Shown in pieces: positions 3,001-9,000 of a stretch of DNA of 64,000 nt. Source of the stretch: Zootoca vivipara (lineage: Eukaryota); assembly GCF_963506605.1 (NCBI RefSeq), contig NC_083276.1, positions 50,096,001 through 50,160,000 of the forward strand, written 5' to 3'. Position numbers: made by a program. Each line of letters begins with the position of its first letter. The first letter of the stretch is position 1.

Positions 3001-6000
3001 ATATCTAAATGGTTTAGGACACAGACTGTGCTTTATTGATTATTGCTGTGTTTTGATTGTGTGCAGCTTTAGAACTTTGAAAATGCTGTGAAACTGAAAG
3101 GTATGAATAAAAAAAATCCTAAGCTACATTTCCCAGCTCTATCTTGTAAAACAAATATACAGTGGTACCTCAGTTTACAAACAAAATTGGTTCCGGAAGT
3201 CTGTACTTAACCTGAACCGTACTTAACCTGAAGCGAACTTTCCCATTGAAAGTAATGGAAAGTGGATTAATCCGTTCCAGACAGGTCCGCGGAGTACTTA
3301 AACTGAAAATACTCAAACCGAGGCGTACTTAAACCGAGGTATGACTGTAACAGACATAATTTAAACCAACCCTCTACTGTTCTACAGCCCCCTCCAGAAT
3401 TTCCTAAGATTTCATAGGAAAACAGATGCACAGTTTACAGGGCTCATGTGACTTAGCTAAAACTCCATGAGGAATTGAAAGTATCAAGAACAGAAAGTAG
3501 GAGAGAAAGGCTCAAGAAGTGAGTAGGAAGTAGTGGTGGTAAGTGTTGTGACGTGGGGTTTGTGATTTCAGCTCTCTTGACAAAACATGCTGGAGACAGT
3601 TCTCTAGTAACAGCTCTTTATTAAAGTGAACAAGACTGACTGTGAGGGCAGGAAGGCTACATTTATAGGGACAGGGGACTGGCTAGGAAGGGATACATTT
3701 TGGAGGGAACAATATCAGGCAATCACAGTGCTGCCTTTTGGAGGGAACCAATAAGACAGAGGATCCAAATACAGCAGCTTAAATGAACCAATAGTAGCTG
3801 TACCCTCTGGAACCAAAAGGCAGTTACTTTATCCTAATGCAAATACAGACAATAATAATACAGATATAAAATCCTTTGACTCAATACACAACACCCCTCC
3901 CCCCCTAGTGAGCACAGCAGACGTAATCCCTCAGGTACTGTGGGGTCCTACAACTTCTACCTGATCTCCTGACAACAGGTGTTGCAGGTTCTGGATTGGG
4001 TGTTACCTGTGGTGGAGGGGCTGCTATAGGGGTTTCGTCAGGAACAGATGGAGTCCCAGACATCTCAGGGTCCCCTACCTGTACCTCGTCATCCTGAGGA
4101 TTAGCAGACCCTGGTTCATTTGCTGAAGCCCCTGGTGACTGCACCTCTGGGCCATCTTCACTCTGGTCTTGCAGCTGTGCGTCATTAGCCAGGGATGAAT
4201 TATCTGACTCCTCCCTGCTGAGCGCCCGGCGCCTCAGCTGATCTATATGTCTCTTCCAAACTTGCCCATTTTCCAAGGTCACATAATAGGACACAGGTCC
4301 ACTAGCCCGGGTGATCACACCGGCCACCCACCGCGGACCTCGTGAATAGTTCCTCACCCAGACCAGATCTTCAGGGGCGAGATACCTTGTTGTGTCAGTC
4401 TCAGCCTGGGGGGTTGCTCTTGAATTACGGTTTGGCATTTTATCTGGGTGGACATAATCCAGCACCGTTACCAGTCTTCTACCTAAGAGCAGCTCGGCTG
4501 GCGACTTGCCCGTCGCAGTACACGGCGTCGCATGCTGCAAAAATAACATTCGCGCAATGCGAGCCGACCAGTTACCCTCCATTAAGCGCGCAATGGATTC
4601 TTTGGCTGTTCGTACCATGCGCTCAGCCTGCCCATTGGAGGATGGGTGAAAGGGCGCGGATGTGACCCCTCTTATGAAGTTATCAGCCAAGAATGCCCTG
4701 AATTCTTGGGATACAAAAGCTGCCCCATTATCTGATACAATGGTCTCAGGTAACCCGTGGGTTGCAAACAGCTGCCTCAACACCTTGATTACGGCAGCTG
4801 ATGCCATGCTAGGGACCATCGCCACTTCTAACCATTTGGAATATGCATCAACGATAACCAAAAAGACCTTCCCTTGGAATGGCCCAGCAAAATCTATGTG
4901 CAGCCGGCTCCAGGGAGCCCTGGACTGCTCCCACCAGTGGACTGGTGCTCTGGCCACTTCTGGCCGCACCTCTTGGCATGCCTTGCATGTTCGTACCCAT
5001 TGTTCTATGTTCTGGTCCATTCCAGGCCACCACACATAACACCGGGCTAGCGACTTCATCCTGACCATTCCTGGGTGTCCCATGTGAAGCGTCTCAAGAA
5101 CCCTGTTTCTCAGTGGTGCTGGGATGATCACCCTATCTCCCCATAGGAGACAACCCTTATGCATGGACAATTCGTGCTGCCTTGTCGCATAAGGCCTGAA
5201 TTTTTCTTCATGCGGACCACCTGGCCACCCCCTCCCCACCCAAGTGAGCACACGGGAGAGAACAGCATCTTTCCTCGTTTTCTCAGCTATATCAGTAGCT
5301 GTTACAGGAGCCCCCGGAAGTGTTTCTAGCATCATAATGTGCTCCGCCGGAGCAGGATCCTCATTGCTCCCGCCAGGAAGGGGCAATCGACTCAGCGCAT
5401 CAGCGTGGCACAACTGTTTCCCCGGCACATGGGTCAAGGTGTACTGGAACCCATTCAGGAATATTGACCAACGCAACATTCTGGGGGAGAGAATTTGTGG
5501 CGTTTGTTTGTTTGGGTTGAACAACCCTAACAGTGGTTTGTGGTCCGTTTCAATGGAGAAATGGCGACCGTACAAATAATCATAGAACTTTTTGATTCCT
5601 GACACAATTGCTAGTGCCTCTTTATCAATTTGAGCATAGTTGCGCTCCGTGGGTGACAACGTACGGGAATAGAAAGAGATGGGCTTTTCCGACCCATCCG
5701 GTTCCCTATGACTCAGCACAGCCCCCAGGCCGTATTGAGAGGCATCACATGCCAGGACCAGCGGCTTCGACTCATCATAATGAGCAAGGACGCTCCTGCT
5801 ACTCAGCATTTCTCGCAAGGAGTCAAAAGCCTTCTGCTGCTCCCGCCCCCATCGCCACACAGTCTTTTTATGCAAAAGTCTATGTAATGGTTCAGCTACC
5901 GAAGCTTTCTGGGGTAAGAATGAATGATAAAAGTTGATAAGTCCCAGGAATGACTGCAACTCCGTCTTGTTCTGTGGTCGTGGTGCCTCGATGATGGCCT

Positions 6001-9000
6001 TAATCTTAGCATCTGTGGGGTGGATGCCTGATGCATCAATTTTAAACCCCAAGAAATCCACAGTTGGCACCCCAAAACTGCATTTTTCTTTTTTCAGTTG
6101 CAACCCCACCTCCTTGAACTTGAGCAACACTGCACGGACACGCGCAACCAGTTCCTGTGGGTCTTTTCCAGCAATCAAAACGTCATCAAAAAATGGCAAG
6201 ACCCCCGGCAGACCCCTTAACAGGCGTTCCATGAGCCCTTGAAAAATCCCTGGGGCCACACAAACTCCGAACTGTAATCTGTTAACTCTGAACGCCCCTT
6301 TATGTGTGACAATAGTCTGTGCTTCCGCTGATTGTGGGGTTACTGGCAGCTGTTGGTAAGCTTGTGCCAGGTCAATTTTGGCGAACACCTTGCCCCCAGC
6401 CAGTTTAGCCAACAGATGTGATACGACTGGAATGGGGTATGAGTTTCCCCTGAGTGCCTTATTGATAGTACATTTGTAATCTGCACATATCCTGACTTCC
6501 CCATTTGCTTTAAGGGGCGTGACGATTGGAGTCTCCCACTTAGCAGAGTCCACGGGTGAGAGAACTCCCTGCTTGACCAATTTATCCAGCTCTGCCTCGA
6601 TCTTGGGTTGCAGTGCAAATGGCACTCGCCTTGGTTTGAGTCGGATTGGGGCCACCCCGGGGTCCAACTCAAAGTCAACTGGGGGCCCTTTATAACAACC
6701 CAGTTTTCCATTAAAGAGACCAGCAAATTCCTTGCATAATGCCTCGCTCATCTCAGGGCAGGTTTGGATTGAATTAAGCCCTGAGATACTCAGTCCCAGG
6801 GCGGGGAACCAGTCAGTGCCCAGGAGACTGGGGCGACTGCCCTTCGCAATCACCAGTTTGAGTACAGCCTGTTTGTCCCGGAACTGTACTCTCACGGCAC
6901 ACATTCCCATAACATGGATGCGGCCTGCTGAGTACGACTGCAAGGTTGCCGGGAAGGGCTCCAGAGGGGGCAACTTACCCCTGGGGAAGAATGTCTTCGC
7001 AGTCTGGTCCGACACGATGGTGAATGCAGATCCGGAGTCCACCTCCATGTCGCACTGCTGACCCTCAATCTTCACCTTGACGTGTGCCTTGCCTTGCGCT
7101 GGAAACTGCACGGCCCTCCCGTTGATCTCCGTTACGTAGTGGCAGTCCTTTAGAAAACGAGGTGCTGTGGGTGGTCTGCGATGCTCCAGTCTAGGTGCTC
7201 CTGTCGCTCCCGACGCCGCCGATCTACAGACCCTGGCGATGTGACCCGTCTTTCCGCACGTCCGGCACATAGCATCCCTGAAACGACAACTCTTCCGCTC
7301 ATGGTTTCCGCCACAACCTGGGCAACTGCCTCGGCGATCTTTGTGCACTGTGCAGGCCTGACGCACCAACTCAACCCCACGGACTGGGCTCTGGCTCGGA
7401 GTAGCCTCTAGCTCATCCATGGCATGCGCAACTTCTATCTGTGGCTTAGTGGCCTTGCGACTGGCATCAAGCTCCTCTCTTTCATAATTCTCCGTGGCGG
7501 TGGCCTCCTTCAAGGCTGAAGCAAGGGTAACCTCTTCTTTAGCCACGATGCGTCTTCTGGCTTTCTTGCTGCTCAGACCACCAATAAACCGATCCAGGAG
7601 AGTCTCTTCCAGATTTTGGAAGCCGCAGTGCTGAGCGAGCTTCCGGAGTTCAGCCAGAAATGCGGATACAGACTCCCCAGCATGCTGCTGCCTCTTATGG
7701 AACTCCATCCGCCGGGCCATCTTGGTCTCAGTAGGCGCCAAGTGGCTTGTTAGGCAGGCAAGAATATCTTTGAGAGATGTCTCACTCAGCTTCGCTGGAG
7801 CAAGTAATGCCTTGGCCAGCTTGAAGGTCTCGGGCCCACAGTAGCTCAGGAATGTGGCCCTTCTTTTGCTGGCATCGGTGATCCCTTGAGCCACTGCAAA
7901 GAACTCGAAGCGTTCGACGTAGTCTTCCCAGGTGTGGGGCTCTGATGGCTGGAAGGGCTCCAATACCCTTGGACTCTCCATTGTCCTAGCGGGCAGGGTC
8001 GTCTTCTCAGCTGGCCAGTGAGTCTTGTTCTCAGCTGCAATCCGGACTCTGAGGCAGGGTTGTGTTTAACCGCTCCTCAGCATTCCGGATCCCATCCTCG
8101 TCGCCAGTTGTTGTGACGTGGGGTTTGTGATTTCAGCTCTCTTGACAAAACATGCTGGAGACAGTTCTCTAGTAACAGCTCTTTATTAAAGTGAACAAGA
8201 CTGACTGTGAGGGCAGGAAGGCTACATTTATAGGGACAGGGGACTGGCTAGGAAGGGATACATTTTGGAGGGAACAATATCAGGCAATCACAGTGCTGCC
8301 TTTTGGAGGGAACCAATAAGACAGAGGATCCAAATACAGCAGCTTAAATGAACCAATAGTAGCTGTACCCTCTGGAACCAAAAGGCAGTTACTTTATCCT
8401 AATGCAAATACAGACAATAATAATACAGATATAAAATCCTTTGACTCAATACACAACAGTAAGAATGACCCATATTATATCATCTGATGAGTGAGAAACA
8501 GTATGATTCTACCGTCCTGATGGCTTTCCAGCACCAATGGGGAACAGAAAGACCTTTATTTTTACATTCAGACCACAAAACACTGATACACAAAGGACCC
8601 TCCCATTTTAAAACTGCGAACAGAATGCTAATGAATTTTCTTACAAATAATTGTCATCATGACCTTATATATGTTACCATTTTATTTTTTAAAAGTTAAT
8701 TCTTTTTAAGGTATGAAAGGATCAATGACAGAAAAATAATAACCCTTTTCTGGTTTTCCAACCCTACAGGGAACATTGTTAAAGGGAAAGGACGAAATAC
8801 TGTACAGCTTGAGCATGCCTATCTTTATTACAATAATGGTTAATAAACAAAGCTGCATATTACATGCATCCTATTATATGCACTAAGGAATATCACAATA
8901 AGATGTCCACACCTATGTCATTAATGATATCAGCAATTTATTTCATTTATATCTCAGGCCGTAGATTTCAGAGCAACTCAAGCAGCACATTGAAAGACGT

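What the first reader, a model, noticed from the sequence alone, without database searches (positions are those of the whole stretch)
3539..8463. Intact, probably still-mobile Mag-like Gypsy retrotransposon with apparently identical LTRs
Seen: 350-bp LTRs with no visible mismatch, a perfect 5-bp TSD, a perfect 18-nt PBS, a PPT, and a 1358-aa ORF with no stop or frameshift that retains protease, RNase H and integrase catalytic motifs. Established: LTRs are identical at insertion; twin Gag zinc knuckles, a Ser-tRNA PBS and a single ORF fit the Mag lineage; active Gypsy elements are lost in mammals. Inference: a very recent insertion, possibly polymorphic, from an active amniote Gypsy family that may be uncatalogued.
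Basis: partly seen in the sequence, partly recalled or inferred. Interest (0 to 1): 0.75.

Follow-up and report, generated by a model that had tools for sequence, protein, structure and literature searches.

The report
Intact young Gypsy retrotransposon in lizard
This is a structurally complete copy of an ordinary jumping-gene family (a Ty3/Gypsy LTR retrotransposon) in a lacertid lizard chromosome; it probably inserted recently, and lizards are already known to carry active elements of this kind.

Summary
Two exact 350-bp LTRs (3544-3893, 8109-8458) carry TG..CA ends and lie between a perfect GTAAG duplication. Eighteen nt (8089-8106) match a published tRNA-Ser(GCU) 3'-end primer 18 of 18. 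A polypurine tract abuts the 3' LTR. One 1358-aa Gag-Pol ORF is uninterrupted, with all catalytic and zinc-binding residues in conserved columns.

It is a Ty3/Gypsy element: the domain order is PR-RT-RNaseH-IN and the best solved relative is yeast Ty3. It has no env and no chromodomain. Its relatives are the automatically named "K02A2.6-like" proteins of lacertid lizards (Podarcis, Zootoca, Lacerta).

Mag-lineage features fit, but I could not run a phylogeny with reference elements.

"Very recent" is plausible: the ORF is intact, internal CpG content is twice the background, and the protein's 90% cluster has 67 members. But zero differences in 350 bp only bound the age at about 2-20 My, depending on the rate. 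Mobility, polymorphism and catalogue status stayed untested.

Active Gypsy elements in lizards are established, so this is an ordinary new member of a known kind.

Side lead: a cattle-tick element nests inside the squamate clade.

The parts
3539..3543 (.). Target-site duplication, left copy (GTAAG on + strand)
3544..3893 (-). 3' LTR of the element (350 bp, identical to the 5' LTR). The only AATAAA of the LTR lies at 3617-3622 in this copy.
3894..3905 (-). Polypurine tract, 12 nt, abutting the 3' LTR and overlapping the stop codon by 1 nt
3905..7981 (-). Single Gag-Pol ORF, 1358 aa plus stop, with no interruption
7448..7930 (-). Gag capsid-like region (aa 18-178). It resembles Drosophila Arc1 capsid; there is also a weak, sub-threshold Pfam PNMA hit at aa 27-118.
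   Evidence: (6tap E 8e-6 with Gag alone)
7226..7324 (-). Nucleocapsid: two CCHC zinc knuckles (aa 220-232 and 239-252)
   Evidence: Cys/His kept in 40-42 of 43 relatives
6806..7081 (-). Aspartic protease (aa 301-392; active-site D315-S-G)
   Evidence: weak Pfam hits, below cut-off; D and G kept in 43 of 43
6038..6481 (-). Reverse transcriptase, Pfam RVT_1 (aa 501-648; motif C is F-F-D-D at aa 597-600)
5447..5851 (-). RNase H (aa 711-845; the fourth acidic residue, D861, lies just beyond the Pfam bounds)
4961..5125 (-). Integrase H2C2 zinc-binding domain (aa 953-1007)
4622..4912 (-). Integrase catalytic core (aa 1024-1120; D1030, D1084, E1120, with a spacing of 35)
3908..4570 (-). C-terminal region after the integrase core (aa 1138-1358). 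It has no Pfam family and no chromodomain. A language-model lead points to integrase C-terminal regions of similar elements.
   Evidence: median identity to relatives 37%
7982..8088 (-). Untranslated leader between the PBS and the start codon
   Evidence: 127 nt from LTR end to ATG
8089..8106 (-). Primer-binding site, 18 nt, complementary to the 3' end (with CCA) of tRNA-Ser(GCU); a 2-nt spacer (8107-8108) separates it from the LTR
8109..8458 (-). 5' LTR of the element (350 bp). The only TATAAA of the LTR lies at 8227-8232 in this copy, 45 nt upstream of the AATAAA.
8459..8463 (.). Target-site duplication, right copy (GTAAG on + strand)

Best explanation
A structurally complete, autonomous Ty3/Gypsy (Metaviridae-type) LTR retrotransposon lies on the minus strand of a lacertid lizard chromosome. 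It belongs to the 'K02A2.6-like' group that is abundant in squamates and is probably of the Mag lineage.

Shown here: all cis parts are present (LTRs, PBS, PPT, TSD), and there is one uninterrupted Gag-Pol ORF with every catalytic residue.

Inferred from the known cycle of such elements:
- Transcription starts downstream of the TATAAA in the 5' LTR and ends after the AATAAA in the 3' LTR.
- The single polyprotein is cut by its own protease into capsid/nucleocapsid, RT-RNase H and integrase.
- tRNA-Ser(GCU) primes minus-strand DNA at the PBS, and the polypurine tract primes the plus strand.
- Integrase inserted the copy with a 5-bp staggered cut, which gave the GTAAG duplication.

The copy is young relative to its surroundings, and the family looks multi-copy in lacertids. 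Whether this copy still moves is not shown.
For: - Exact 350-bp LTR pair with sharp boundaries and a perfect 5-bp TSD.
- PBS matches a published tRNA-Ser(GCT) 3'-end primer at 18 of 18 nt. PPT confirmed.
- Pfam order PR, RVT_1, RT_RNaseH, Integrase_H2C2, rve.
- The best solved relatives are Ty3 Gag-Pol 7q5b (E 4e-90, aa 436-1168) and Ty3 RT 4ol8 (E 7e-66). Gag aa 18-178 resembles dArc1 capsid.
- All 25 checked functional residues lie in columns kept in 29-43 of 43 relatives; apart from the protease Ser (29 of 43), the range is 39-43.
- Youth: internal CpG o/e is 0.55, against a mean of 0.24 and a maximum of 0.38 in 103 background windows. Of 21 repeat pairs inside the window, 19 are 70-95% identical; only the LTR pair and one 69-bp pair are 100%.
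- Family: 668 relatives at E<=0.001 among 8000 scored. The window's own protein sits in a 90% cluster of 67 member sequences.
- A Zootoca vivipara protein on another contig is identical over 178 of 178 aa. Podarcis lilfordi fragments are 97.5-98% identical over the first 204 aa.
- Gypsy elements are documented as recently and actively transposing in the green anole: 45,625 polymorphic insertions, many of them singletons (PMC7561263, passages read).
Against: - There is no direct evidence of transcription, of particles or of new insertions.
- The members of the 67-sequence cluster could not be listed (unavailable), so how many are full-length, or from which species, is unknown.
- LTR identity is a weak clock at 350 bp: the 95% upper bound is 1.8-20 My.
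- LTR-LTR gene conversion or assembly polishing could also give identical LTRs.
- The protease and zinc-knuckle Pfam hits are below the curated cut-offs; their assignment rests on motif conservation.
- The host species is not fixed (Zootoca or Podarcis).
- The Mag assignment has no formal test.
Confidence: 0.9

Rival explanations
1. The insertion is old (several to about 20 My) and perhaps fixed. The LTRs are still identical because they are short and lizard substitution rates are low, or because LTR-LTR gene conversion homogenised them.
For: With the anole rate of 2.1e-10 per site per year used in PMC7561263, zero differences in 2 x 350 bp is compatible with ages up to 20 My at the 95% level. 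Family members in different lacertid genera are still about 95-96% identical in the Pol core, so this family changes slowly.
Against: A 4077-nt frame with no stop or frameshift, every catalytic residue intact, and a CpG content twice the local background are not expected after many My of neutral decay in a CpG-depleted genome. Gene conversion between the LTRs would not protect the internal region.
Confidence: 0.15
2. The perfect LTR identity, or the whole insertion, is an assembly or polishing artefact.
For: No read data could be examined. Identical repeats 4.6 kb apart can be homogenised by consensus polishing.
Against: The repeat boundaries are sharp and the flanks unique. The TSD is perfect and the internal sequence is a coherent single ORF. 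There are no N runs in the window.
Confidence: 0.03
3. The family is a recent horizontal arrival in this lizard rather than a long-term resident.
For: Within the wider group, a Rhipicephalus microplus tick element nests inside the squamate clade (bipartition support 100 of 100). A Zootoca protein is 100% identical over 178 aa, while Podarcis proteins are 96-98% identical.
Against: The window's element sits in a lacertid-only clade of 4 tips (support 100 of 100). Cross-genus Zootoca-Podarcis pairs in two other subfamilies are 94.9% identical in the core, so about 96% is what vertical descent gives in these lizards.
Confidence: 0.08
4. It is a host gene domesticated from a retrotransposon (like Arc or PNMA), not a transposon.
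For: Gag resembles dArc1 capsid, and there is a weak PNMA hit.
Against: Complete LTRs, TSD, PBS, PPT and full Pol are present. The family is multi-copy.
Confidence: 0.01

Closest known systems
Squamate 'uncharacterized protein K02A2.6-like' / 'Gypsy retrotransposon integrase-like' gene models (Podarcis muralis, P. lilfordi, Zootoca vivipara, Lacerta agilis, geckos, snakes)
   Same: Same polyprotein architecture. Identity is 92% overall and 96.5% in the RT-RNaseH-IN core to a P. muralis protein, 82% in the core to a Zootoca protein and 81% to a Lacerta protein. With P0002, P0003 and P0004 the window's protein forms a lacertid-only clade (support 100 of 100).
   Different: Those records are bare protein models with automatic names. 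Here the complete element, with LTRs, PBS, PPT and TSD, is seen.
Mag lineage of Ty3/Gypsy (Mag of Bombyx mori; mosquito Mag-like families; SURL/Steamer C-clade; Jule of Xiphophorus)
   Same: Size is 4.9 kb. It has short LTRs, one ORF, a tRNA-Ser PBS and a 5-bp TSD, as in the Culex Mag-lineage table of PMC3286476 (4.1-5.3 kb for most, LTRs 119-304 bp, 1-2 ORFs, PBS Ser or Leu). PMC8905726 remarks that 'K02A2.6-like' annotations appear related to the C-clade of this lineage.
   Different: The LTR (350 bp) is longer than any in that table. No reference sequence was available, so placement in the lineage is not tested. For Jule I saw only the title in reference lists; the paper is not held.
Ty3 of Saccharomyces cerevisiae (solved structures 7q5b, 4ol8)
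   Same: It is the best solved relative across RT, RNase H and integrase (E 4e-90). It has the same domain order.
   Different: Ty3 is a chromovirus-branch element of yeast. From recall, it has gag and pol in two frames and uses a different primer tRNA. The lizard element has one frame and a tRNA-Ser PBS.
Gypsy families of the green anole
   Same: They are amniote Ty3/Gypsy elements about 5 kb long, with population evidence of ongoing transposition (PMC7561263, passages).
   Different: The host family differs (Dactyloidae versus Lacertidae). No anole protein was among the 120 best hits listed, so these are not the closest relatives.
Drosophila Arc1 / mammalian PNMA (domesticated Gypsy Gag genes)
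   Same: Capsid-type Gag region: dArc1 E 8e-6 over aa 18-178; sub-threshold Pfam PNMA hit.
   Different: Those are host genes without Pol or LTRs. No N-terminal extra domain precedes the capsid-like region here, since it starts at about aa 18.

Membership tests
Ty3/Gypsy LTR retrotransposon | Two direct LTRs with TG..CA termini | tested here: met
   350 of 350 nt identical, with a 7-bp terminal inverted repeat
Ty3/Gypsy LTR retrotransposon | Short target-site duplication (4-6 bp) | tested here: met
   GTAAG on both sides
Ty3/Gypsy LTR retrotransposon | tRNA primer-binding site after the 5' LTR and polypurine tract before the 3' LTR | tested here: met
   18 of 18 nt match a published tRNA-Ser(GCT) primer; 12-nt purine run. 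The lizard's own tRNA was not available; ARAGORN found 0 tRNA genes in the window.
Ty3/Gypsy LTR retrotransposon | pol order PR-RT-RNaseH-IN (integrase last) | tested here: met
   Pfam positions 301-392, 501-648, 711-845, 953-1007, 1024-1113; best solved relative is Ty3
Mag lineage (A/B/C clades) | Groups with the reference elements (Mag, SURL, Jule and others) in RT/RNaseH/IN trees. This is how the lineage is delimited in PMC6238403 and PMC8220671 (passages). | not testable with these tools
   No tool returns those references by name. None of the 120 listed hits carries such a name.
Mag lineage (A/B/C clades) | Usual anatomy: about 4.5-5.3 kb, short LTRs, 1-2 ORFs, PBS for tRNA-Ser or tRNA-Leu, 5-bp TSD | tested here: met
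   4915 bp, one ORF, Ser PBS, 5-bp TSD, compared with Table 1 of PMC3286476. The features are not exclusive: a Gypsy-lineage element in that table also uses tRNA-Ser.
Mag lineage (A/B/C clades) | Relatives annotated 'K02A2.6-like', a label that PMC8905726 relates to the C-clade | tested here: inconclusive
   Most named hits carry the label. The paper's statement is tentative, and the label is an automatic best-hit name.
Chromoviruses | Chromodomain at the integrase C-terminus | tested here: not met
   No chromo-domain family in the whole protein at E<=0.01, nor in aa 1138-1358 alone
Env-carrying Gypsy elements (errantiviruses) / endogenous retroviruses | A third ORF (env) between pol and the 3' LTR | tested here: not met
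   The stop codon overlaps the PPT, so no room is left. The 7 other ORFs of >=100 aa inside the element have no Pfam family.
Currently transposing family | Insertion polymorphism, or many copies with near-zero LTR divergence | not testable with these tools
   Indirect evidence only: a 67-member 90% cluster and an identical 178-aa N-terminus on another contig. The cluster listing was unavailable, and no lizard genome or reads were on hand.

The most novel reading that the evidence does not exclude
The copy belongs to a lacertid Gypsy family that is transposing now, so the insertion would be polymorphic. The wider squamate radiation it belongs to has exchanged elements with hard ticks: the Rhipicephalus microplus element nested among squamate elements would then mark a parasite-host transfer of an LTR retrotransposon. 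So far such transfer is documented for BovB LINEs rather than for Gypsy elements.
Probability: 0.2. Interest if true: 0.45.

Novelty: new member of a known kind. Interest (0 to 1): 0.2.

Why it matters
As it stands, the result has local value. It gives a clean, fully delimited reference copy (LTRs, PBS, PPT, TSD, domain bounds) for a lacertid Gypsy family that public records hold only as automatically named protein models. That helps repeat annotation and keeps such models from being counted as host genes.

It adds nothing new in principle, because active Gypsy elements in squamates are documented (PMC7561263).

If the family proves polymorphic, it would be a usable marker system in lacertid population genomics. 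If the tick link holds, it would extend parasite-associated horizontal transfer from LINEs to LTR elements.

Tried and rejected
- Listing the 67 members of the protein's 90% cluster: one search was unavailable because the database is switched off.
The Gag fold was therefore judged by sequence only.
- Reading Bowen & McDonald 1999 and Volff et al. 2001: not held.
- Looking for a PNMA-type N-terminal RNA-binding domain (idea from PMC11011659): rejected. The dArc1-like capsid match already starts at aa 18, and the PNMA hit is below its cut-off.
- Rfam on the element at E<=1: 0 matches.
- Other copies or solo LTRs in the window: none.
- Host genes around the insertion: of 171 stop-to-stop ORFs of >=75 aa outside the element, 2 hit Pfam, and both are transposon-like. 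The three longest ORFs hit nothing.
- An early note said the lacertid clade mirrors the host tree. I withdraw this: the window's species is not known and I did not check the lacertid phylogeny.
- Literature for a tick-squamate Gypsy transfer: searches listed no such paper among 15 and 12 rows shown (113 and 85 papers met the thresholds). Passages read in PMC12914980 and PMC13465657 do not report one.

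
Full report
OBSERVATION. The finding is accurate at its coordinates.
- A script extended the direct repeat base by base. It is exact for 350 nt (3544-3893 and 8109-8458). The next 30 nt on either side match at only 7 and 4 positions; the repeat finder shows the first 300 nt at 100%.
- The LTRs start with TG and end with CA, with a 7-bp perfect terminal inverted repeat.
- GTAAG lies immediately outside both LTRs, at 3539-3543 and 8459-8463.
- The only long ORF is 3905..7981 on the minus strand, 1358 codons from an ATG. 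The element therefore reads right to left: the 5' LTR is 8109-8458 and the 3' LTR is 3544-3893.
- The window has no N, and it has no other copy or solo LTR of the element by blastn or tblastn.

CIS ELEMENTS.
- In sense orientation, two nt follow the 5' LTR and then come 18 nt beginning TGG (window 8089-8106). I searched the paper library for a 12-nt part of this stretch. PMC9072684 (one passage read) prints a primer for tRNA-Ser(GCT). By side-by-side reading, its first 18 nt are the same as these 18 nt; position 19 differs. So the PBS is complementary to the 3' end, CCA included, of tRNA-Ser(GCU) as known from human. That the lizard tRNA has the same end is inferred; ARAGORN found no tRNA gene in the window.
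- A 12-nt purine run (3894-3905) abuts the 3' LTR and shares one base with the stop codon.
- Each LTR has one TATAAA (LTR positions 227-232) and one AATAAA (272-277) 45 nt downstream. This fits a U3 of about 255 nt, a short R and a short U5. That layout is inference.
- Rfam finds nothing in 3400-8600 at E<=1.

PROTEIN.
- Pfam gives, in order: a weak zinc knuckle; weak aspartic protease (aa 301-392); RVT_1 (501-648, 70 bits); RT_RNaseH_2 and RT_RNaseH (711-845, 128 and 119 bits); Integrase_H2C2 (953-1007); and rve (1024-1113). It also gives a sub-threshold PNMA hit at aa 27-118.
- Against all solved structures, the best match is the Ty3 Gag-Pol of entry 7q5b (E 4e-90 over aa 436-1168), then Ty3 RT 4ol8 (E 7e-66). 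Caulimovirus, spumavirus and gammaretrovirus enzymes follow at far weaker E-values.
- Gag aa 18-178 matches Drosophila Arc1 capsid (E 5e-5 with the whole protein, 8e-6 with Gag alone).
- I aligned 43 proteins: the window's own plus the 42 others of 1200-1450 aa among the 84 chosen sequences. Then I read column shares at the window's functional residues:
  - the eight Cys/His of the two knuckles are kept in 40-42 of 43;
  - protease D and G in 43 of 43;
  - RT motif A and C Asp in 39-40;
  - RNase H D, E, D, D in 41-43;
  - integrase H, H, C, C in 42-43;
  - D, D, E in 42-43, with the canonical 35-residue spacing.
- There is no chromodomain and no env. The tail aa 1138-1358 and the seven other ORFs of >=100 aa inside the element have no Pfam family. 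The Atlas search links the tail, as a lead only, to integrase C-terminal regions of similar elements.

RELATIVES AND HOST.
- The protein search scored 8000 candidates; 668 had E<=0.001 and 120 were listed.
- The window's own protein is in the collection, in a 90% cluster of 67 member sequences. I could not list them (unavailable).
- The best named hits are lacertid lizards: Podarcis muralis (92% over 88% of the query), Zootoca vivipara (71%) and Lacerta agilis (67%). Almost all hits are named 'uncharacterized protein K02A2.6-like' or 'Gypsy retrotransposon integrase-like protein 1'.
- The search among shorter proteins gave 70 hits at E<=1e-30. It adds eight Podarcis lilfordi fragment clusters at 64-98% identity, 97.5-98% over the first 204 aa in the four closest. 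It also adds one Zootoca vivipara protein, on a different contig, that is identical over 178 of 178 aa.
- Six of the eight P. lilfordi models compared are internally shortened relative to the window's protein; I give no places.
- The host is therefore a lacertid, Zootoca or Podarcis. I could not decide which.
- Cross-genus Zootoca-Podarcis pairs in two other subfamilies are 94.9% identical in the Pol core. The 96.5% between the window and P. muralis is thus what vertical descent gives here.

TREE.
- From the 120 listed hits I kept the window's own protein (P0001), the 80 that carry an organism name and three unnamed close ones (84 sequences in all), and dropped 36 unnamed. Of the 84, 74 cover at least 90% of the RT-RNaseH-IN core in one local alignment; 10 were dropped.
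- I built a neighbour-joining tree on 729 columns with 100 bootstraps.
- It puts the window with P. muralis (100), then Lacerta agilis (98), then one Zootoca protein (100). This is a lacertid-only clade of four.
- All 42 named squamate sequences fall in one 47-tip group with support 100. That group also holds the window, three unnamed records and one tick sequence.
- This is a distance tree on sequences picked for likeness to a lizard query, so it is a description, not a test of lineage membership.

LINEAGE.
- The Mag lineage is delimited by phylogeny with reference elements (PMC6238403 and PMC8220671, passages). None of my tools supplies those references, so membership is untested.
- What I can say is that the anatomy fits. 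In the Culex table of PMC3286476 (passages including Table 1), most Mag-lineage elements are 4.1-5.3 kb, with LTRs of 119-304 bp, one or two ORFs, PBS for tRNA-Ser or tRNA-Leu, and mostly 5-bp TSDs.
- PMC8905726 (passages) remarks that 'K02A2.6-like' annotations seem related to the C-clade of that lineage.
- These features are not exclusive.

AGE AND ACTIVITY.
- Zero differences in 2 x 350 bp give a 95% upper bound of 20 My at 2.1e-10 per site per year, the anole rate quoted in PMC7561263. The bound is 4.3 My at 1e-9 and 1.8 My at 2.4e-9; these two rates are my assumptions. LTR identity alone is therefore a loose clock.
- Three other observations point to youth:
  - the frame and all catalytic residues are intact;
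  - the internal region has CpG o/e 0.55, against a mean of 0.24 and a maximum of 0.38 in 103 background windows of the same size;
  - of 21 repeat pairs in the window, 19 are 70-95% identical.
- The 67-member cluster and the identical N-terminus on another contig suggest a multi-copy, recently amplified family.
- None of this shows that the copy moves or that the insertion is polymorphic.
- Active Gypsy transposition in a lizard is already documented for the green anole: 45,625 polymorphic Gypsy insertions, many private to one individual (PMC7561263, passages).

CONTEXT.
- The element sits in sequence of about 40% GC, while its interior is 52-54% GC.
- Outside the element, 2 of 171 ORFs of >=75 aa hit Pfam: an RVT_1 fragment and an ALKBH8_N-type match. 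No host gene was recognised.
- The immediate flanks are not repeated elsewhere in the window.

WHAT STAYED UNCHECKED.
- Repbase, Dfam and GyDB.
- The source genome and its sister genomes; reads; expression.
- The members of the 67-sequence cluster.
- A fold model of Gag.
- The supplements of PMC11011659 and PMC7561263, which are closed and may list related reptile families.
- The closed collections viral contigs and metagenome contigs.

VERDICT. It is an ordinary new member of a known kind.

Noticed in passing
relatives P0006, P0005, P0099, P0153 and others (no window coordinates): A Rhipicephalus microplus (cattle tick) polyprotein, P0006 (cluster of 41 members), and its unnamed sister P0005 nest inside the otherwise squamate-only 47-tip clade, with bipartition support 100 of 100. 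P0006's best named matches are lizard and gecko elements (72-73% in the core), against 67% to an Ornithodoros element and 54% to an Ixodes element. Related tick models come from two differently labelled sets and from R. appendiculatus, which argues against contamination. This is a candidate old tick-squamate transfer. However, the sampling is biased towards lizard-like sequences.
   Followed up: partly
relatives P0013, P0036, P0072, P0088, P0110: An Ornithodoros turicata (soft tick) element groups with Trichinella elements (support 82 of 100). This is another parasite-with-parasite pairing in the same tree.
   Followed up: no
window 3544-3893 and 8109-8458 versus 3894-8108: The LTR is almost CpG-free (1 CpG in 350 bp, o/e 0.07, 41% GC), while the internal region is CpG-rich for this genome (163 CpG, o/e 0.55, 53% GC). 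Whether the CpG-poor promoter region has any bearing on silencing is unknown.
   Followed up: no
relative P0170 (Zootoca vivipara, contig of 46.8 Mb): This 244-aa gene model has a first 178 aa identical to the window's Gag. It lies on a different contig from the window's protein (135.7 Mb). It is either a second copy in the same genome or cross-genus identity.
   Followed up: partly
relatives P0122, P0137, P0143, P0163, P0167, P0174 (Podarcis lilfordi): Six gene models of the same family are internally shortened versions that keep the Gag start. Three of them (P0122, P0137, P0143) also keep part of the C-terminal tail. They could be deleted, non-autonomous copies or annotation artefacts; places are not listed.
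   Followed up: no
relative P0073 (Erythrolamprus reginae): A 2081-aa snake model named 'FK506-binding protein 15 isoform X1' contains a full polyprotein of this group (43% identity over 99% of the query) next to an FKBP domain. It is probably a gene model that swallowed a transposon.
   Followed up: no
window 12071-12128 (-): An Rfam tRNA match (49 bits, model positions 8-63 of 71) that ARAGORN does not call as a tRNA gene. It is probably the tRNA-derived head of a SINE.
   Followed up: no
window 55682-56131 (+) and 59700-60041 (-): These are the only two Pfam hits among 171 ORFs outside the element: an RVT_1 fragment (E 4e-15) and an ALKBH8_N-type match (E 5e-21). Both look like remains of other, older retroelements; that reading is inference.
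   Followed up: no
window 16622-16690 and 43643-43711: An exact 69-bp direct repeat, 27 kb apart, in otherwise unrelated surroundings. It is probably the conserved part of an interspersed repeat.
   Followed up: partly
window 9852-9929, 28492-28557, 30140-30273: Simple repeats: (TAGA) x 20, (GAG) x 22, and a 71-bp unit repeated 1.9 times at 95%.
   Followed up: no
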